Source: an uncultured Omnitrophica bacterium
GTDB lineage: Bacteria > Omnitrophota > Gorgyraeia > JACQQV01
Length of the DNA stretch: 64,000 nt
NCBI GenBank assembly: GCA_947085655.1
Contig: CAMTXH010000013.1
Span: 23,513-87,512 of the forward strand
Direction: 5' to 3'
The position numbers were made by a program, and so were the translations under genes. How positions within the stretch are numbered: the first letter of the stretch is position 1; every line of letters begins with the position of its first letter. The notes beneath the pieces were generated by a model. That model ran no database searches. It was not told the DNA's origin and saw only the letters and a list, made by a program, of their open reading frames with translations. Below are positions 8,311-14,750 of this stretch, piece by piece.

Positions 8311-8339
8311 TTGCACTCATGATGACATCCTTGTATAAT
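8311..8339 (+). promoter_or_regulatory. Sigma70-type promoter, TTGCAC-17 nt-TATAAT, upstream of the yceI/DUF2282 operon
   Basis: Near-consensus hexamers with an exact 17-nt spacer, about 70 nt upstream of the yceI-like ATG at 8411. Confidence 0.5.
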
Positions 8340-8410: not shown

Positions 8411-8998
8411 ATGCGTCGTGTTGGCTGGATGTCTGCTTTGCTCCTATTGTACTTATTGGTTTCTCCCCTTTGGGCGGCCACCTATAAAGTGGATCCCCAC
8501 CATACGACCGTCGGTTTCAAAATCCGCCATCTTTTTTCATGGGTGCACGGCACGTTTAACGAATTTGAGGGAACCATTGAATATGAACCGGCAAAACCGG
8601 AAAGTTGGTCCGCCTCGGGCACCATTCAGGCGGCCAGTATTGATACGCGGGTTGCCCCGCGGGATAAACACCTTCGCTCCGGTGATTTCTTCGATGTGGA
8701 GAAGTATCCGACGATTGACTTCCGGACAACCCGGATCGATGATGTCGGCGCCAACAAGGCCAAGCTGCACGGCTTTCTCACGATTCACGGTGTTGAAAAA
8801 GAGGTGGAGTTGGATGTGGAAGTCCTCGGAATTGCCAACGATCCATGGGGAAACACCGTGGCGGGATTTTCCGCCACGACCACCTTTGACCGTCGGGACT
8901 TTGGATTGACATGGAATGAGACGTTGGAGACCGGAAGTGTCCTCGTAGGGAACGAGGTTCAGATCACCCTCGACATCTCCGCGCTCCTTCAAAAGTAA
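8411..8998 (+). CDS. YceI-family periplasmic (polyisoprenoid-binding-like) protein
   Basis: Signal peptide MRRVGWMSALLLLYLLVSPLWAATYKV, then YceI motifs (HTTVGFKIRHL, HGTFNEFEGTIEY, YPTIDFRTT). The ORF-track start at 8360 has no RBS; ATG at 8411 is preceded by GAAGGG. Confidence 0.8.
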   Translation: MRRVGWMSALLLLYLLVSPLWAATYKVDPHHTTVGFKIRHLFSWVHGTFNEFEGTIEYEPAKPESWSASGTIQAASIDTRVAPRDKHLRSGDFFDVEKYPTIDFRTTRIDDVGANKAKLHGFLTIHGVEKEVELDVEVLGIANDPWGNTVAGFSATTTFDRRDFGLTWNETLETGSVLVGNEVQITLDISALLQK

Positions 8999-9008
8999 GA
9001 TAAAGGAG

Positions 9009-9311
9009 GTGAACATGGCGTCGGTGAAACCAAAACGGAACAAAAGACAAACGCTGGTGGCCGCGTCTGTCGCGGGCCTTCTCGCTTTGGCGGCTGTCCC
9101 CGGCATGGTGCAGGGGCATCTGGAAGCGGCCGAGGAAGGGAAGACGAAGTGTTACGGCGTCAACAAGTGTAAGGGCACCGGTGACTGCGGTGGAAAGGGT
9201 CATTCCTGTGCAGGACTGAATGCCTGTCAGGGGCAGGCGTGGATTTATCTTCAGGAAAAGGACTGCCTTCGGATCCAGGGCGGGCGCTTGACTCCCGAAG
9301 AAGAAGGATAA
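9009..9311 (+). CDS. DUF2282-family secreted Cys-rich small protein (bufferin BufA-like RiPP precursor candidate)
   Basis: Sec signal peptide (LVAASVAGLLALAAVPGMVQG), then KCYGVNKCKGTGDCGG-HSCAG-NACQGQAW...DC, matching the conserved Cys-containing DUF2282 core as I recall it. An AAGGAGG RBS lies 7 nt upstream. Its stop codon overlaps the downstream ATG (TAATG). Confidence 0.7.
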   Translation: MNMASVKPKRNKRQTLVAASVAGLLALAAVPGMVQGHLEAAEEGKTKCYGVNKCKGTGDCGGKGHSCAGLNACQGQAWIYLQEKDCLRIQGGRLTPEEEG

Positions 9312-11002
9312 TGTGGCCTCTTCTCGGGTGCGGGGTCGGTCTTCGGACGGATCATTATGACCTGATTACCCGCGAATGGCCCGGGATGGACTGGTTTGAG
9401 GCTGTCTCCGAGAATTTTATTGATTCTGGGGGACGGCCTCTTTCTGTTTTGGAGAAGGTCCGGGCCCGTTATCCGGTGGCCCTCCACGGCGTCTCTCTTT
9501 CCATCGGTTCGGCCGATCCGCTGGATGAAACATATCTCAAAAAATTAAAAACGCTTGCGGATCGGATCGAACCGGTCTTGGTAACGGACCACCTTTGTTG
9601 GAACGGTGTAGCGGGGGAGTGCCTGCACGATCTTCTGCCCCTTCCATTTACGGAAGAGGCGATCCGGCATGTGGTACGGCGGGTCCAAAAGGTCCAGGGG
9701 TTTCTTGGCCGGCGGATTCTCCTTGAAAATATCTCCACTTACATTACGTACAAACATTCGGAGATGCCGGAATGGGTTTTTCTTTCGGAAATTGCCCGCC
9801 GTTCCGGATGCGGCATCCTTCTTGATTTGAACAACCTCTATGTCAATTCCGTCAATCACCGTTTCGAGCCGGAGGAAACCCTCCGGAATATTCCGGGAGA
9901 ATTCGTCGGACAGTTCCATCTGGCCGGGCATACCGACAAGGGAAAATACCTTTTTGATACCCATAATAGCCGTGTGATCGAGCCGGTCTGGGAGTTGTAC
10001 CGGAAGGCCCTTTGTCAGTGGGGGGCGGTGGCTACCCTGATTGAATGGGACGAGGCGATCCCCGATTTTCCAGGTCTTTCGGAGGAGTCGAAAAAAGCGC
10101 GGGCGATTTATGAGGAAGTGACGAAAGGCAAAAAAGATGCTTTAGAAGCAGCTCCTTCCCAAAAACCGGTCATCCGCCCCCGGCCGCCGGAGGGGCCAGA
10201 TCTTGCAACGCTTCAGTGTTGGATGAAATCCCAGATTCGGCCGAGCGGCGGTGGGAAAGAAACTTTTTCCGAATCTCCCCTGAATCCGCAGGGGGGAGAC
10301 CCGGGAATAGTCCGGATGGAGGTGTACGCATCCGGGTATCTGGCGAGGATGAAAGAAGCGCTTGAAGAGGTTTATGAGGCGGTGCACCACCTGACGGGCG
10401 AGGGGGTCTTTTCACGCCTTGCAACCGACTACGCGAAACAATTTCCCTCCCGGCATTACAATTTAAGCGCGGCCGGGGTCCATTTCAGCCGTTTTTTGGA
10501 GATGGCGGAAATCACCGAAAAGCTTCCCTTTCTGCCGGATCTTGTACGGCTTGAGTGGAAGGTGAATCAGGCCTTTCACGCTTTTGAAAAACCGCCCCTC
10601 TCACCGGAGATCTTTCAATCCGTTCCGGAGGAAAAGTGGGATGACTTGGTTTTTGAGTTTCAACCCTCCGTCGGCATCGTCTCCTCCGGGTGGCCTATTC
10701 TGGACCTTTGGCAGGCGCGGAAAACTCCTCGCAAGGAAATCGATATCCAGGTCGTGGACCGCCCCCAGACAGTGCTTATTTTCCGGAAGGGTTTTCAGGT
10801 CCGGTGCGAAAATCTTGAAAGAGGAGAGGCCGCGCTTCTTGAGGGGCTTCTTGCCGGCCGAAGCCTCGGCGATGTCTGCGGTTCGCTTGCCGACTTTTCA
10901 AAAGATCTGTTGCCCGATCTCACCGGAACTTTCCGCAATTGGATGCAAAAAGGCCTTCTGATATGTTACAATGCAGGTAGGATTGGGCACGATGCAAAAT
11001 AG
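9311..11002 (+). CDS. Fused DUF692 (MbnB/BufB-like TIM-barrel di-iron enzyme) and DUF2063 (MbnC/BufC-like) protein
   Basis: The N-terminal ~280 aa show DUF692 hallmarks (GVGLRTDHY, FEAVSENF, HGVSLSIGS, VTDHLCW, LLPLPFTEE, ILLENISTY, GCGILLDLNNLYVNS, FHLAGH). After a Pro-rich linker the C-terminal ~250 aa are DUF2063-like. It is one uninterrupted ORF. The ORF-track start (9239) overlaps bufA; ATG at 9311 (MWPLLGCGVGLRTDHY) is preferred. Confidence 0.75.
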   Translation: MWPLLGCGVGLRTDHYDLITREWPGMDWFEAVSENFIDSGGRPLSVLEKVRARYPVALHGVSLSIGSADPLDETYLKKLKTLADRIEPVLVTDHLCWNGVAGECLHDLLPLPFTEEAIRHVVRRVQKVQGFLGRRILLENISTYITYKHSEMPEWVFLSEIARRSGCGILLDLNNLYVNSVNHRFEPEETLRNIPGEFVGQFHLAGHTDKGKYLFDTHNSRVIEPVWELYRKALCQWGAVATLIEWDEAIPDFPGLSEESKKARAIYEEVTKGKKDALEAAPSQKPVIRPRPPEGPDLATLQCWMKSQIRPSGGGKETFSESPLNPQGGDPGIVRMEVYASGYLARMKEALEEVYEAVHHLTGEGVFSRLATDYAKQFPSRHYNLSAAGVHFSRFLEMAEITEKLPFLPDLVRLEWKVNQAFHAFEKPPLSPEIFQSVPEEKWDDLVFEFQPSVGIVSSGWPILDLWQARKTPRKEIDIQVVDRPQTVLIFRKGFQVRCENLERGEAALLEGLLAGRSLGDVCGSLADFSKDLLPDLTGTFRNWMQKGLLICYNAGRIGHDAK

Positions 11003-12464
11003 AGAATCACTGCAAGCCATTATCAGAGAAAGAGTCAGCAACGAGCTCTTTGTCGTTGTTTCAAACCGCGAACCCTATATCCATCAATTTAAAGGGGAGG
11101 AGATTGTCTGTCAGGAGGCGACCAGCGGACTGATCACCGCACTCGACCCGGTGATGCAGGCCTCAAGCGGTATCTGGATCGCGCACGGAAGCGGGGATGC
11201 GGATCAAAAGGTGGTCGATCAAAAAAATCATGTCCGGGTGCCGCCAGAAAACCCCTCTTACACCCTTCGCCGTGTCTGGCTCACCAAAGAAGAGGAGGAC
11301 GGCTACTATTACGGCTTTTCGAATGAAGCCCTCTGGCCCCTTTGCCATGTGGCCTATACCCGTCCGGTTTTTAACGATGCGGATTGGAAAACGTACTGTG
11401 CCGTCAATCAGAAATTTGCGGATGCGATTCTTGAAGAAGTGGGAAGCCGGAAGGCCTTTGTCTTTATCCAGGATTATCACTTCACGCAACTGGCGCGACT
11501 CCTCAAGCGGCCGAATATCCGGACCGCGCATTTCTGGCACATCCCCTGGCCGAATCCCGAGGTTTTCCGGATTTGCCCCTGGGCGACCGAAATCCTCGAC
11601 GGGCTTTTAGGAAACGACCTCCTCGGTTTCCACACGCGGCTTCACTGCCAAAATTTTCTGGACAATGTCTGGACGATGCTCAAGGCAAAGGTAGATTATG
11701 AGCGGTTTGAGATCAGCCGGGATGGAGCCACCACATCGGTCCGTCCCTTCCCGATCAGCATCGATTTTGAAGCGACCTCCGAGGACGCCCGGAGCGCCGA
11801 GGTGGAAACGGAGATGGAAAACCTCCGGAAAAAATACGGGCTTCGGAATATGTTGATCGGGCTCGGGGTGGACCGGGTTGACTATACGAAAGGGATTCCG
11901 GACCAATTCCGGGCGCTGGACCGGTTTCTGGAGCGGTATCCGGAGTATCAGGGGCGGGTGATGATGGTGGAAATCGGCGTTTCCAGCCGGGCGCGAATCC
12001 CGACGTATCAGAGAGTGAACGACGAAATCGACCAGATTGTGGAAGAGGTCAACTGGAAATATCAGAAGGGGGGATGGAAGCCGATTCTCTATCTGAAGGA
12101 AAGGGCTCCGGCGACAACACTGCACGCCTGGTACCGGCTGGCAAACTTCTGCGTGGTCAGTTCCCTGCACGATGGAATGAATCTGGTGGCCAAGGAGTAC
12201 GTTGCTTCCCGCAATCAGGAGGACGGCGTTCTTCTCCTCAGCCGCTTTACGGGGAGCGCCCGCGAACTGACCGACGCCATTTTGATTAATCCCTATGCCA
12301 TCGACCATATGGCGGAGGCCTACCGCGAAGCCCTGACCATGCCGCTGAAGGAGCAAAAAAATCGGATGCGGCAACTCCGCGCGCATGTGCAGGATCACAA
12401 TATCTACCGGTGGGCCGCTCAGGTCCTCTCATCCCTCTTTCAGTTTGAATTTGCGGAGAAATGA
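10992..12464 (+). CDS. otsA: Alpha,alpha-trehalose-phosphate synthase (GT20)
   Basis: GT20 motifs (VVSNREPY, GGL..AL, WIAHGSG, GFSNEALWPLCH, FIQDYHF, FFLHIPWP, HDGMNLVAKEY). An ATG at 10992 overlaps the bufBC stop (ATGCAAAATAG), indicating translational coupling; the ORF-track start is 10971. Confidence 0.85.
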   Translation: MQNRESLQAIIRERVSNELFVVVSNREPYIHQFKGEEIVCQEATSGLITALDPVMQASSGIWIAHGSGDADQKVVDQKNHVRVPPENPSYTLRRVWLTKEEEDGYYYGFSNEALWPLCHVAYTRPVFNDADWKTYCAVNQKFADAILEEVGSRKAFVFIQDYHFTQLARLLKRPNIRTAHFWHIPWPNPEVFRICPWATEILDGLLGNDLLGFHTRLHCQNFLDNVWTMLKAKVDYERFEISRDGATTSVRPFPISIDFEATSEDARSAEVETEMENLRKKYGLRNMLIGLGVDRVDYTKGIPDQFRALDRFLERYPEYQGRVMMVEIGVSSRARIPTYQRVNDEIDQIVEEVNWKYQKGGWKPILYLKERAPATTLHAWYRLANFCVVSSLHDGMNLVAKEYVASRNQEDGVLLLSRFTGSARELTDAILINPYAIDHMAEAYREALTMPLKEQKNRMRQLRAHVQDHNIYRWAAQVLSSLFQFEFAEK

Positions 12465-12467
12465 TTT

Positions 12468-13265
12468 TTGAAGCATCCCCCGAAATTTTTCCTTTTCGCC
12501 GATTATGACGGAACCCTCACCCCGATTGTCTCCCACGCCAAAAAAGCGCGCCTTTCCAAAAAATTACGGCGCCTTTTAAAAAAACTTTCCCGAAAGCCGG
12601 GATGCATCCTCGGGATTGTGAGCGGCCGCGCGCTCCCGGAACTGAAGCGCTTCGTCGGAGTCCCCGGCCTTGTCTATATCGGAAACCACGGATTTGAACT
12701 TGAGTCCAGCCGGTTTTCCTTCGTTCATCCTTCCGCACGCCGCGCACGCCCCCTCATGGAACGGATTGCCGATACCTTGGAGGAGTCTCTCAAAGAGTTC
12801 CGGGGGGCATGGGTGGAGCGGAAGGGATGGACGGTGAGCGTTCACTGGCGGGGCGTTTCTCCGCGGAAGCAAAGCCGTTGCCGGCGCCGGATTCTGGTCG
12901 CTGTGGCCTCCGCCCGCAGAGCGCACAAAATCCGTCTGACGCATGGGAAATGCGTCACAGAAATCCGTCCACCGGTCCTTTGGAATAAAGGGACGATGAT
13001 TGAATGGGCGGTGAAACGGCTTGCGGGAAGAAACAGGCGTTTTGGGTCATGTTATCTGGGGGATGACCGGACGGATGAAGATGCGTTCCGGGTCGTCAAT
13101 CGTCTCGGGGGGATTTCCATTTTTGTTGGAAAAGACAAGAAACATTCCCGGGCGTGTTATTCTTTGAAGAATCCCAACGACGTCCAAGTGTTTTTTAAGC
13201 ATCTTCTCGATGATTTACCCGTCGCCGAGGCCGTTTGTCAAGGCGGCGGCGTTCTGTTACCATAG
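12468..13265 (+). CDS. otsB: Trehalose-6-phosphate phosphatase (HAD-IIB)
   Basis: FLFADYDGTLTPIV (DxDGT HAD motif I); later motifs S/T and K-x(n)-GDD (YLGDDRTDEDAF); only a 3-nt gap after otsA. Confidence 0.8.
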   Translation: MKHPPKFFLFADYDGTLTPIVSHAKKARLSKKLRRLLKKLSRKPGCILGIVSGRALPELKRFVGVPGLVYIGNHGFELESSRFSFVHPSARRARPLMERIADTLEESLKEFRGAWVERKGWTVSVHWRGVSPRKQSRCRRRILVAVASARRAHKIRLTHGKCVTEIRPPVLWNKGTMIEWAVKRLAGRNRRFGSCYLGDDRTDEDAFRVVNRLGGISIFVGKDKKHSRACYSLKNPNDVQVFFKHLLDDLPVAEAVCQGGGVLLP

Positions 13266-13289: not shown

Positions 13290-13691
13290 ATGACAGCGAA
13301 GGAAAGATTGCTGAATGTGGGGCTATTGTGGCTTCGGGTGCTGGTGGGACTCGGAATCGCATCCCACGGCTACCAGAAAATTTTCGGCGGGCAGTTGAGT
13401 TTGTTAATCAACAGCGTGACGGAAATGGGGTTTCCCCAGCCGGTCCTCCTTGGCTGGGCAGCGGCTCTCTCGGAATTTGCCGGAGGGATTCTGATCGTGC
13501 TCGGGCTTGGCACCCGTGTCGCCGCCTGCTTTGTCTTTGCCACGATGAGCGTTGCCGCATTTATCGCGCATGCTTCGGATCCTTTCCAAGTAAAGGAGTT
13601 GGCTCTCGCCTATTGGACGATGGCCGGCTTTTTGATTTTAAGCGGAGGAGGCATATTTTCGTTGGATGCGAAGTGCTTCCGGGAGGGATAA
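13290..13691 (+). CDS. DoxX-family membrane protein
   Basis: Four TM segments, WLRVLVGLGIASHGYQKIFGG, and an overall DoxX pattern. Confidence 0.8.
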   Translation: MTAKERLLNVGLLWLRVLVGLGIASHGYQKIFGGQLSLLINSVTEMGFPQPVLLGWAAALSEFAGGILIVLGLGTRVAACFVFATMSVAAFIAHASDPFQVKELALAYWTMAGFLILSGGGIFSLDAKCFREG

Positions 13692-13850
13692 ATGGTCGGC
13701 GTGATCATGGGGATCGTCGTATTGACGATGGTGGTCTTGGCTTTTACACTGGATCCGCAGGTCAAGCGCTGCGAACATTGCGAGGGTCCGGTCACGCTGA
13801 AGGAATTCTGGTCGCATTTTAAGAGGTGTTCTGAAACCAAAAAGAAATGA
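13692..13850 (+). CDS. Unannotated 52-aa micro-ORF: single TM helix plus C-x2-C...C cluster (MVGVIMGIVVLTMVVLAFTLDPQVKRCEHCEGPVTLKEFWSHFKRCSETKKK)
   Basis: An ATG sits immediately after the DoxX stop, and the ORF's TGA overlaps the sigma-factor ATG (ATGA), so it would be coupled on both sides. It is below the 60-aa cut-off of the ORF track. Confidence 0.4.
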   Translation: MVGVIMGIVVLTMVVLAFTLDPQVKRCEHCEGPVTLKEFWSHFKRCSETKKK

Positions 13851-14470
13851 ACCGCATCTCAACAGGAGACCAAGCACTGATTCGCCGGCTGAAAGTGCGT
13901 GACGAAACGGCGGTGGGGGAGCTCATGACCCAGTATCACGCGAAGGTGATGGGCCTCGCCCTCCGGCTCACCGGCAATCGTCAGGACGCGGAAGAAGTGC
14001 TCCAGGACGTTTTTTGGACGGTGGTTCAAAAAATCGGGGGCTTCCGGGAAGAGTCGAGTCTTTCCACTTGGATTTACAGGATTGCCACGAATGTCGCATT
14101 GATGAAACTCCGCAAACGCCCCAAAATCGAGGAACTTCCCCTTGACGAAGAACTCGGCCCCAAGATAACCGGAGAAGGGATGATTGCCGAGACGGTGACG
14201 GATTGGTCCAATCTTCCGGATGGTGCCGCATCCCGCAAGGAATGGATGCAGCATCTGGAGGAGGCGGTCCGGAGACTCCCTCCGGAATACCGGACTGTTT
14301 TTGTCCTTCGGGATGTGGAAGGACTCTCTGCCGAAGAAGCATGCAAGATCCTGAATCTTTCTATTCCGGCCCTGAAAAGCCGGCTGCACCGGGCGCGGCT
14401 TTTCCTTCGAAAGGAGATGGCGGATGTGGCGGAGACCCGGCCGATCGGAATGAGGTCACCCCATGCTTAA
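13847..14470 (+). CDS. ECF-type RNA polymerase sigma-70 factor
   Basis: Sigma70 region 2 (VLQDVFWTVVQKIGGFREESSLSTWIYRIATNVALMKLRKR) and region 4 (YRTVFVLRDVEGLSAEEACKILNLSIPALKSRLHRAR). Confidence 0.85.
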   Translation: MNRISTGDQALIRRLKVRDETAVGELMTQYHAKVMGLALRLTGNRQDAEEVLQDVFWTVVQKIGGFREESSLSTWIYRIATNVALMKLRKRPKIEELPLDEELGPKITGEGMIAETVTDWSNLPDGAASRKEWMQHLEEAVRRLPPEYRTVFVLRDVEGLSAEEACKILNLSIPALKSRLHRARLFLRKEMADVAETRPIGMRSPHA

Positions 14471-14750
14471 ATGCAGGGACATCAACGGATTGCTTCATGA
14501 TTATGCGGAAGGGCTCTTGGAGCTCTCCGTTCACAAAGAGCTGGACCGGCATCTTTCGGATTGCCCCGGCTGTCTCGCTTTTGTGAAGACCTATAAAGAA
14601 ACCATCCGCCTTTCGAAAGACCTTCGCACCGGGGAGATGCCTCCCGAACTTCAAGAGAAGCTCGAGAGTTTCCTCAAAGCCAAACTCGCTGAAAAACCCA
14701 AAACCCTCTGGGACCGGCTCCGCTCCCGCTTCGGCCGGGGCTGTTGTTAG
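14463..14750 (+). CDS. Anti-sigma factor, zf-HC2 type (soluble, ChrR/RsrA-like)
   Basis: H-x3-C-x2-C motif (HLSDCPGC); its start overlaps the sigma stop (ATGCTTAA). Confidence 0.7.
   Translation: MLKCRDINGLLHDYAEGLLELSVHKELDRHLSDCPGCLAFVKTYKETIRLSKDLRTGEMPPELQEKLESFLKAKLAEKPKTLWDRLRSRFGRGCC

What the first reader, a model, noticed from the sequence alone, without database searches (positions are those of the whole stretch)
9009..9311. Candidate RiPP precursor with six Cys residues in its core, four of them in two pairs spaced C-x5-C (CYGVNKC, CAGLNAC)
After a Sec signal peptide the mature ~70-aa peptide carries KCYGVNKCKGTGDCGG-HSCAGLNACQ...DC. Bufferins are reported to carry Cys-derived thiooxazole heterocycles installed by the DUF692 enzyme. 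The number and spacing of Cys here may define a distinct subfamily, and they are the candidate modification sites.
Basis: partly seen in the sequence, partly recalled or inferred. Interest (0 to 1): 0.6.

Follow-up and report, generated by a model that had tools for sequence, protein, structure and literature searches.

The report
Ordinary BufA2-type bufferin precursor gene
This small gene encodes a typical member of the known "bufferin 2" family of secreted, cysteine-rich peptides that a neighbouring iron enzyme converts into copper-binding molecules, so its six-cysteine pattern is the family's standard signature and not a new subtype.

Summary
The ORF is real. Its likely start is ATG 9015 and its stop is 9309-9311, giving 98 aa. 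It has a Sec-type signal peptide and six Cys (C46, C52, C58, C65, C71, C84). It passes NCBIfam's BufA2 equivalog model (64.4 bits, cutoff 60) and weakly passes Pfam DUF2282. Its stop overlaps (TAATG) the start of a fused BufB(MNIO)-BufC(DUF2063) maturase.

The spacing C-x5-C-x5-C-x6-C-x5-C-x12-C is not special. 115 of 120 close homologues have it, as do 72 of 88 peptides in related genome loci and most distant representatives. These include the Cys-Lys-rich sequences that score 100-114 bits on the BufA2 model. The "distinct subfamily by Cys number and spacing" idea is therefore not supported, while the bufferin-precursor reading is.

By homology with Caulobacter Buf2, the four central Cys probably become 5-thiooxazoles and C46-C84 forms a disulfide. 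This is inferred, not shown.

Two further points:
- The BufB-BufC fusion is common, with at least 120 fused homologue clusters.
- This clade is tightly linked to a secreted YceI protein, which sits next to BufA in 60 of 80 loci but in only 1 of 80 canonical BufA2 loci. The bufferin papers I could read do not describe YceI as a conserved partner.

Verdict: new member of a known kind, low to moderate interest.

The parts
8411..8998 (+). yceI: secreted YceI-like (lipocalin-fold) protein, 195 aa. Its stop lies 16 nt before the bufA start. It is the clade-specific neighbour of BufA.
   Evidence: Pfam YceI 169.9 bits. Gene call as in L001. Adjacent to BufA in 60/80 related loci against 1/80 canonical BufA2 loci.
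9003..9009 (+). Shine-Dalgarno AAGGAGG, 5 nt upstream of the bufA ATG.
   Evidence: Read.
9015..9311 (+). bufA (BufA2-type bufferin precursor), 98 aa plus stop. Signal peptide is residues 1-34 or 1-38 (9015-9116 or 9015-9128). The core holds six Cys at codons 9150, 9168, 9186, 9207, 9225 and 9264.
   Evidence: NF050166 64.4 bits, cutoff 60. PF10048 30.3 bits, cutoff 22.4. 641 homologues. Cys invariant.
9168..9227 (+). Segment holding the four central Cys (C52, C58, C65, C71), the inferred 5-thiooxazole sites.
   Evidence: Inference from C. vibrioides Buf2, where the central Cys carry -4.03 Da each (PMC11626156). This region has low AlphaFold2 confidence.
9311..11002 (+). bufBC: fused MNIO maturase (residues 7-267) and DUF2063/RRE-type partner (residues about 300-563), 563 aa. 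Its start ATG overlaps the bufA stop (TAATG).
   Evidence: PF05114 347 bits and PF09836 53 bits. NF050167 359 bits, cutoff 310. The same ORF occurs in four assemblies. At least 120 fused homologue clusters. Metal-ligand and catalytic Asp positions are conserved.
10971..13265 (+). otsA (10971-12464) and otsB (12468-13265), trehalose synthesis genes lying between bufBC and doxX. Probably co-transcribed but not part of the bufferin system.
   Evidence: Pfam Glyco_transf_20 420 bits. Trehalose_PPase. Absent at this position in all 80 related loci.
13290..13691 (+). doxX: DoxX-family membrane protein, a possible BufD equivalent. Membership in the system is uncertain.
   Evidence: Pfam DoxX 70.4 bits. 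The HvfX model gives only 55.6 bits against a cutoff of 80. No DoxX homologue lies near BufA in the related loci.
13847..14750 (+). ECF sigma factor (13847-14470) and a 95-aa zinc-binding (HxxxCxxC) anti-sigma factor (14463-14750). Candidate regulators.
   Evidence: Sigma70_r2/r4_2 and zf-HC2 hits. Homologous sigma/anti-sigma pairs sit directly after BufA in L055 and L073, and a sigma homologue alone in L083.

Best explanation
Window 9015-9311 encodes the precursor of a BufA2-type bufferin (Buf_6/12Cys family, also called 'captophorin'). A bufferin is a ribosomally made periplasmic metal-binding peptide.

Proposed course:
1. The 98-aa precursor is translated together with the downstream fused BufB-BufC protein. 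The stop and start codons overlap.
2. In the cytoplasm the DUF2063/RRE-type BufC part holds the precursor. The multinuclear non-haem iron (MNIO) BufB domain oxidises Cys residues to 5-thiooxazoles, a loss of 4 Da each.
3. By homology with Caulobacter Buf2, the four central Cys (C52, C58, C65, C71) are converted and C46 and C84 are left alone.
4. The Sec machinery exports the peptide. Signal peptidase cuts after G34 or A38.
5. C46 and C84 form a disulfide that ties the first beta-strand to the C-terminal helix.
6. The mature peptide of about 60-64 aa binds copper through the thiooxazoles and buffers periplasmic metal stress.

Shown here: family membership by HMM, the conserved Cys pattern, the signal-peptide features, the gene coupling and the intact MNIO catalytic residues. 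Inferred from relatives: which Cys are modified, the chemistry, and copper as the ligand.
For: - NF050166 BufA2 equivalog: 64.4 bits against a cutoff of 60. All 21 aligned relatives match it.
- PF10048: 30.3 bits against 22.4.
- Six Cys are invariant. The spacing 5,5,6,5,12 is shared with the highest-scoring BufA2 sequences.
- The downstream gene scores 359 bits on NF050167 'MNIO family bufferin maturase' (cutoff 310) and also hits DUF2063.
- bufA and bufBC overlap in TAATG.
- BufA sits next to BufB and BufC in about 70 of 80 related genome loci.
- In my alignment 56 BufB positions are at least 97% conserved. They include H59, H94, E139, D172, N175, H203, D216, H218 and E245, which by my recollection of MbnB correspond to its iron ligands, and D247, which aligns with the FonB catalytic Asp249 (PMC13097082).
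- The AlphaFold2 model with 120 sequences gives strand 43-47 (with C46), strand 76-80 and helix 81-86 (with C84) at pLDDT of about 70-81. This matches the published description of bufferin models, in which a disulfide joins the first strand to a short helix (PMC11626156).
- Chemistry and copper function are established for C. vibrioides Buf1 and Buf2 (PMC11626156; 10.64898/2025.12.15.693703).
Against: - There are no experimental data for this peptide or for any member of its clade.
- The BufA2 model score is only just above cutoff. Cys-Lys-rich BufA2 sequences, the type to which C. vibrioides BufA2 is assigned in PMC13097082, score 100-114 bits, so this is a peripheral member.
- The residues after the four central Cys are K, G, A and Q here. 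The characterised BufA2 type has Lys after its Cys (PMC13097082; representative sequences), so the number of Cys converted could differ.
- The central loop is modelled with low confidence.
- I could not obtain the C. vibrioides BufA2 sequence. The paper's numbering for the first and last Cys (Cys24, Cys50) does not fit the 38-residue span seen here, so residue-level correspondence rests on the family HMM and on representative sequences.
- No copper-handling genes lie nearby. The neighbours are general stress genes: msrA, a ferritin-like gene, otsAB and mscS.
Confidence: 0.8

Rival explanations
1. Buf1-like maturation. Only the two Cys that align with the modified Cys23 and Cys31 of Caulobacter Buf1 (here C58 and C65) become thiooxazoles. 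The two extra Cys (C52, C71) form a second disulfide alongside C46-C84. The expected mass shift is -12 Da instead of -18 Da.
For: - The peptide also passes Pfam DUF2282/BufA1.
- Its C46/C58/C65/C84 spacing (12, 7, 19) is close to Buf1's Cys12/23/31/52 spacing (11, 8, 21).
- The central motif GGKGHSCAG and the lack of Lys after C58 and C65 differ from the Cys-Lys context of characterised BufA2.
Against: - NCBIfam places it and all 21 relatives in BufA2, while only 5 of 21 relatives reach PF10048.
- C52 and C71 sit in the same C-x-G-x-N-x-C motifs as in canonical BufA2, where the four central Cys are modified.
- The BufB residue at the FonB Phe250 site is acidic (Glu), resembling the Asp of Cys-Lys-type MNIOs.
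Confidence: 0.13
2. A bufferin-type peptide whose physiological role is not copper buffering. It could handle another metal, or take part in a periplasmic redox or oxidative-stress function together with YceI and DoxX.
For: - The neighbourhood holds msrA, a ferritin-like gene, trehalose genes, mscS and a thiol-type (HxxxCxxC) anti-sigma factor, and no copper genes.
- The clade has a conserved YceI partner that is absent from canonical BufA2 loci.
- The literature itself suggests roles beyond copper for some bufferins, such as the MerC fusions and DoxX (PMC12452194).
Against: All characterised thiooxazole peptides bind copper, and their operons are copper- or gold-induced (PMC11626156; PMC13097082). 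Nothing here points to a specific alternative ligand.
Confidence: 0.15
3. An unmodified, disulfide-rich small periplasmic protein (metallothionein-like) that merely neighbours an MNIO gene.
For: Leprevost et al. note that a sizeable fraction of bufferin precursor genes are not next to MNIO genes and may be unmodified.
Against: Here the stop and start codons overlap with bufBC. The A-B-C linkage is conserved across several phyla. The MNIO catalytic residues are intact.
Confidence: 0.03

Closest known systems
Bufferin 2 (BufA2, CCNA_03001) of Caulobacter vibrioides; Buf_6/12Cys family; NCBIfam NF050166
   Same: Both have a Sec signal peptide and a core of about 60 aa. The six-Cys spacing C-x5-C-x5-C-x6-C-x5-C-x12-C is shared with the BufA2 representatives I could read; I could not obtain the C. 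vibrioides sequence itself. The gene is followed by MNIO and DUF2063 genes, and it passes the family's HMM cutoff.
   Different: - About 38% identity to a canonical Cys-Lys-rich representative.
- Only one of the four central Cys is followed by Lys.
- The central motif is GGKGHSCAG.
- BufB and BufC are fused.
- A YceI gene lies directly upstream.
- An ECF sigma/ZAS anti-sigma pair lies nearby, although Buf2 clusters were reported to lack sigma factors.
Bufferin 1 (BufA1, DUF2282/PF10048) of C. vibrioides and the gig operons
   Same: Weak but above-threshold PF10048 match. The KCYG start, the HSCAG motif and the final Cys line up with Buf1's Cys12, Cys31 and Cys52. The predicted strand-strand-helix fold is the same. 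A DoxX gene lies in the same gene string.
   Different: Six Cys, not four. The anti-sigma factor is zf-HC2, not NrsF. DoxX is separated from bufBC by otsAB.
EGKCG / Lys-Cys peptides (oxazolin HvfA, fontiphorin FonA, gonophorin, bulbicupramide)
   Same: The same MNIO-plus-DUF2063 enzyme pair, a signal peptide, and 5-thiooxazole chemistry.
   Different: There are no EGKCG repeats. This peptide is a folded small domain and not a repeat peptide. BufB has Thr and Glu where FonB has Arg16 and Phe250.
Methanobactins (MbnA/MbnB/MbnC)
   Same: An MNIO enzyme modifies Cys in a ribosomal peptide to make a copper ligand.
   Different: Methanobactins have a different partner protein (MbnC), oxazolone-thioamide chemistry, a leader peptide with dedicated export, and a copper-acquisition role. 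MbnB models score far below cutoff here (48 bits against 325).

Membership tests
BufA2 / Buf_6/12Cys bufferin precursors | Match to the family HMM above its curated cutoff | tested here: met
   NF050166 scores 64.4 bits against a cutoff of 60 and covers profile positions 4-76 of 79. 21 of 21 relatives match. The authors' own Buf_6/12Cys HMM was not available.
BufA2 / Buf_6/12Cys bufferin precursors | Six conserved Cys within about 40 residues | tested here: met
   C46 to C84 has spacing 5,5,6,5,12. The same pattern occurs in 115/120 close homologues. 80 of 149 distant representatives have exactly this pattern, and 115 contain it once extra Cys and duplications are counted. It also occurs in the sequences scoring 100-114 bits on the model.
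BufA2 / Buf_6/12Cys bufferin precursors | N-terminal Sec signal peptide | tested here: met
   Read from the sequence: five K/R in the n-region, a 19-residue uncharged h-region, small residues at -3/-1, no RR motif and no lipobox. No dedicated predictor was available, so the cleavage site (after G34 or A38) is uncertain.
BufA2 / Buf_6/12Cys bufferin precursors | Genetic linkage to an MNIO (BufB) and a DUF2063 partner (BufC) | tested here: met
   The bufA stop and bufBC start overlap. The linkage is conserved in related loci.
BufA2 / Buf_6/12Cys bufferin precursors | Central Cys converted to 5-thiooxazoles, outer Cys in a disulfide, and copper binding | not testable with these tools
   This needs mass spectrometry, UV or NMR, and metal-binding assays. 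It is known only for C. vibrioides Buf1 and Buf2.
BufA1 / DUF2282 | Pfam PF10048 match above the gathering score | tested here: met
   30.3 bits against 22.4. Only 5 of 21 relatives reach E<=0.01, so this is a cross-match between sister families.
BufA1 / DUF2282 | Four conserved Cys | tested here: not met
   Six invariant Cys.
BufA1 / DUF2282 | Cluster with DoxX (BufD) and a SigF/NrsF-type regulator | tested here: inconclusive
   DoxX lies 2.3 kb downstream of bufBC, beyond otsAB. It is below the HvfX cutoff (55.6 bits against 80), and the anti-sigma factor is zf-HC2, not NrsF.
EGKCG / oxazolin-type (Lys-Cys) precursors | Repeated EGKCG-like 5-mers | tested here: not met
   The sequence has no such repeat.
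MNIO bufferin maturase (BufB), for the neighbouring gene | HMM above cutoff and conserved iron-ligand and catalytic residues | tested here: met
   NF050167 scores 359.3 bits against a cutoff of 310. H59, H94, E139, D172, N175, H203, D216, H218, E245 and D247 are at least 97% conserved across 190+ homologues. The closest solved structure is 3BWW, E = 2.5e-39.

The most novel reading that the evidence does not exclude
The peptide belongs to a previously undescribed YceI-linked clade of BufA2 bufferins. The clade is found in Omnitrophota, Planctomycetota, Myxococcota, Acidobacteriota, Elusimicrobiota and Binatia MAGs. In this clade a secreted YceI lipocalin is a dedicated fourth component that sits next to the precursor gene and takes the place that DoxX has in proteobacterial clusters. 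It might act as a periplasmic carrier or as a quinone/isoprenoid-linked redox partner of the thiooxazole peptide.
Probability: 0.3. Interest if true: 0.5.

Novelty: new member of a known kind. Interest (0 to 1): 0.25.

Why it matters
The finding adds one more uncultured-lineage example to a peptide family that is already defined, modelled by NCBIfam and biochemically characterised, so on its own it changes little.

Two points have some value:
- It shows that the six-Cys spacing is a family-wide constant, which is useful for annotation.
- It shows that the non-proteobacterial branch of the family carries a conserved YceI neighbour and often a fused BufB-BufC enzyme. A single-polypeptide maturase would be convenient for heterologous expression. 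The YceI linkage could point to an unknown step in how these peptides work in the periplasm.

Tried and rejected
- tblastn of the peptide against PLSDB plasmids, to find annotated BufA1/BufA2 examples, gave no usable match.
- I looked for the C. vibrioides BufA2 sequence or the authors' Buf_6/12Cys HMM in paper texts and supplements. They are not held. The text's numbering 'Cys24/Cys50' could therefore not be reconciled with the 38-residue span.
- The listing of cluster members returned no source names for representatives.
- AlphaFold2 with 21 sequences gave pLDDT 50. With 120 sequences it gave pLDDT 59.8; only the two strands and the helix are usable.
- Foldseek against the PDB found nothing, the afdb50 library was unavailable, and no solved bufferin structure was found by sequence.
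- Rfam found no RNA family in the window.
- The promoter/terminator scan gave nothing convincing inside the gene string.
- A naive ORF-clustering of neighbourhoods was confounded by antisense ORFs in GC-rich loci, so I relied on BLAST with the window's proteins instead.
- I considered and rejected methanobactin, EGKCG/oxazolin and ranthipeptide-like readings. There is no MbnA/MbnC, no repeats and no radical SAM gene.

Full report
**What is in the sequence**

The + strand carries an ORF ending at 9311. The mechanical start is GTG 9009, but that codon overlaps a Shine-Dalgarno AAGGAGG (9003-9009). The ATG at 9015 follows it by 5 nt and is the start used in four independent assemblies that carry the identical 98-aa product: one NCBI MAG, GCA_964374045.1, and three Logan assemblies.

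The N-terminus has five Lys/Arg in 13 residues, then a 19-residue uncharged stretch, and then small residues at candidate cleavage sites (after G34 or after A38). The second site aligns with the AxA consensus of the homologues. The core is thus 60-64 aa.

The six Cys are C46, C52, C58, C65, C71 and C84.

**Family**

- Pfam gives DUF2282 (PF10048, named BufA1 in the Pfam labels) at 30.3 bits against a gathering score of 22.4.
- NCBIfam gives only NF050166, 'BufA2 family periplasmic bufferin-type metallophore', at 64.4 bits against a cutoff of 60, aligned nearly end to end.
- All 21 relatives in alignment A1 hit NF050166. Only 5 of 21 reach PF10048.

The gene is therefore a BufA2 (Buf_6/12Cys) member with a cross-match to the sister family. 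The cross-match makes sense: KCYG, HSCAG and the last Cys line up with Cys12, Cys31 and Cys52 of Caulobacter Buf1 (numbering from 10.64898/2025.12.15.693703).

**Is the Cys pattern special?**

No.
- A word-indexed search found 641 homologues.
- A full HMMER scan of 1.84 billion cluster representatives found 1823 at E<=1e-3 and 446 at E<=1e-10.
- The spacing 5,5,6,5,12 occurs in 115 of the 120 close homologues and in 72 of 88 peptides in related genome loci.
- 80 of the 149 best representatives have exactly this six-Cys pattern, with a last gap of 12 or 13. Most of the rest are the same pattern with an extra N-terminal Cys, or are tandem 12-13-Cys duplications.
- Representatives rich in Cys-Lys motifs (for example [31 protein letters not shown]...C) have the same spacing and score 100-114 bits on NF050166. 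C. vibrioides BufA2 is assigned to this Cys-Lys type in PMC13097082.
- Waschulin et al. 2021 already described 'six conserved cysteines ... within 40 amino acids' next to DUF692/DUF2063 genes (PMC8692599). Leprevost et al. named the family Buf_6/12Cys (PMC11626156; PMC12452194).

The window peptide differs from the best-scoring type in other ways:
- It is about 38% identical to such a representative.
- It has the central motif GGKGHSCAG.
- Only one of its four central Cys is followed by Lys.

**The partner enzyme**

The next ORF (9311-11002) starts with an ATG that overlaps the bufA stop (TAATG).
- Residues 7-267 match the MNIO family (PF05114, 347 bits; NF050167 'MNIO family bufferin maturase', 359 bits against a cutoff of 310).
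- Residues from about 300 match DUF2063.
- The closest solved structure is the Histophilus somni DUF692 protein 3BWW.
- In an alignment with 190+ homologues, 56 positions are at least 97% conserved. They include H59, H94, E139, D172, N175, H203, D216, H218 and E245, which by my recollection of MbnB correspond to its iron ligands. D247 aligns with the catalytic Asp249 of FonB.
- The neighbouring position, Phe250 in FonB and reported as Asp in Cys-Lys-type enzymes, is Glu here. It is Glu in 89 of 120 fused homologues.

The fusion is not an assembly artefact, because the same ORF occurs in four assemblies. It is not rare either: the best 120 homologue clusters are all proteins of about 540-625 aa, apart from two shorter entries, and all carry both domains. 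The few that have source names come from Omnitrophota and Verrucomicrobiae. Among 80 related genome loci, about nine showed B and C in one ORF.

**Mechanism**

For C. vibrioides the following has been shown (PMC11626156; PMC13097082):
- BufB plus BufC convert Cys to 5-thiooxazole (-4 Da each).
- In Buf2 the central four Cys are modified, and the first and last remain as a probable disulfide (net -18 Da).
- The Sec signal peptide drives export.
- The thiooxazoles are needed for copper binding and for growth under copper stress.

I transfer this to the window peptide: C52, C58, C65 and C71 are modified, and C46-C84 forms a disulfide. The AlphaFold2 model built on 120 sequences is poor overall (pLDDT 59.8). 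It does place C46 in a strand (43-47) and C84 in a helix (81-86), with pLDDT of about 70-81. This matches the published description of bufferin models. The Cys-rich loop is left undefined.

The main uncertainty is how many Cys are converted. The residues that follow them differ from the characterised Cys-Lys context, and the scaffold also aligns with Buf1, where only two Cys are modified.

**Surroundings**

All genes from at least msrA onward lie on the + strand and are closely spaced. The order is:
- msrA, a cupin gene, a DAG-kinase-like gene and a SIR2 gene
- yceI (8411-8998)
- bufA and bufBC
- otsA and otsB
- doxX (13290-13691)
- a 52-aa ORF
- an ECF sigma factor, a 95-aa HxxxCxxC anti-sigma factor, and mscS

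DoxX is the usual fourth bufferin gene. Here it is separated from bufBC by the trehalose genes and falls below the HvfX model cutoff. No DoxX homologue was found near BufA in the 80 related loci, so its role in this system is uncertain.

**The unexpected point**

In the 80 species-representative genomes that carry a relative of this peptide, a YceI homologue lies directly next to BufA in 60. These are all MAGs of Omnitrophota, Myxococcota, Planctomycetota, Acidobacteriota, Elusimicrobiota and Binatia.
- There are three gene orders: YceI-A-B-C, B-C-A-YceI and A-YceI-B-C. YceI always touches the precursor gene.
- In a control set of 80 metagenome loci retrieved with Cys-Lys-rich BufA2 sequences, only one has a YceI gene nearby. 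None of the roughly 40 loci with enough upstream sequence has one upstream.
- The YceI proteins look ordinary. They are secreted, have no Cys, and carry the usual conserved His, Arg-Asp and Phe positions.
- The bufferin papers I could read state that no further genes are conserved. They mention YceI once, for a single Legionella cluster in a supplement.

This is a clade-level accessory gene of unknown role. Both YceI and DoxX families have reported links to isoprenoid or quinone ligands (my own knowledge, not tested here), which suggests one testable idea.

**Verdict**

The bufferin-precursor interpretation is supported. The 'distinct subfamily by Cys spacing' interpretation is not. This is a new member of a known kind that current NCBI models would name automatically. 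Interest is low to moderate, and is raised slightly by the YceI linkage.

Noticed in passing
window 8411-8998 (+); related loci L005-L084: A secreted YceI-like protein is encoded 16 nt upstream of bufA. A YceI homologue is adjacent to BufA in 60 of 80 related genome loci, in three gene orders. It is adjacent in only 1 of 80 loci of the Cys-Lys-rich BufA2 type. The bufferin papers held do not describe it as a conserved partner.
   Followed up: partly
window 13692-13850 (+): A 52-aa ORF between doxX and the ECF sigma gene abuts the doxX stop (13689-13691) and overlaps the sigma gene start (13847). It has one hydrophobic helix followed by KRCEHCEG...KRCSE (a CxxC plus one further Cys). Only one of the four assemblies' gene calls includes it.
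   Followed up: no
window 13847-14750 (+): An ECF sigma factor sits with a short, apparently soluble zinc-binding anti-sigma factor (HLSDCPGC, C-terminal GCC) and not an NrsF type. Homologous sigma/anti-sigma pairs sit directly after BufA in L055 and L073, and a sigma homologue alone in L083. Buf2 clusters were reported to lack sigma factors.
   Followed up: partly
window 10971-13265 (+): The trehalose-6-phosphate synthase and phosphatase genes (otsA, otsB) sit between bufBC and doxX, overlapping or abutting their neighbours. This insertion is seen only in this genome among the loci compared.
   Followed up: partly
window 9311-11002 (+): BufB and BufC are fused into one 563-aa protein with a Pro-rich linker. 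At least 120 homologue clusters share this architecture, mostly in Omnitrophota and related MAGs. The MNIO landscape paper I read does not mention this fusion.
   Followed up: partly
related loci L005-L084 and representatives P0121-P0269: Variants of the Cys pattern exist. A 7-Cys form has spacing 5,5,4,4,5,12 (8 loci). A form with a longer central linker has spacing 5,5,11,5,12 (5 loci). There are also 12-13-Cys tandem duplications, and forms with an extra Cys in or near the signal peptide that may be lipoproteins.
   Followed up: no
for example L007 6190-7443; about 10 related loci: A Cu,Zn-superoxide-dismutase-like ORF lies about 1.8 kb upstream of BufA in roughly ten related loci.
   Followed up: no
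window 8311-8339 (+): A possible promoter lies upstream of yceI: TTGCAC, 17 nt, TATAAT, with TG just before the -10 element. The scan tool did not list it because the -35 matches only 3 of 6 positions.
   Followed up: no
PMC11626156, text on Buf2: The paper numbers the first and last Cys of C. vibrioides Buf2 as Cys24 and Cys50, a span of 26. Every BufA2-type sequence seen here spans 38-39 residues. With Cys12 as the first Cys the numbers would fit.
   Followed up: partly
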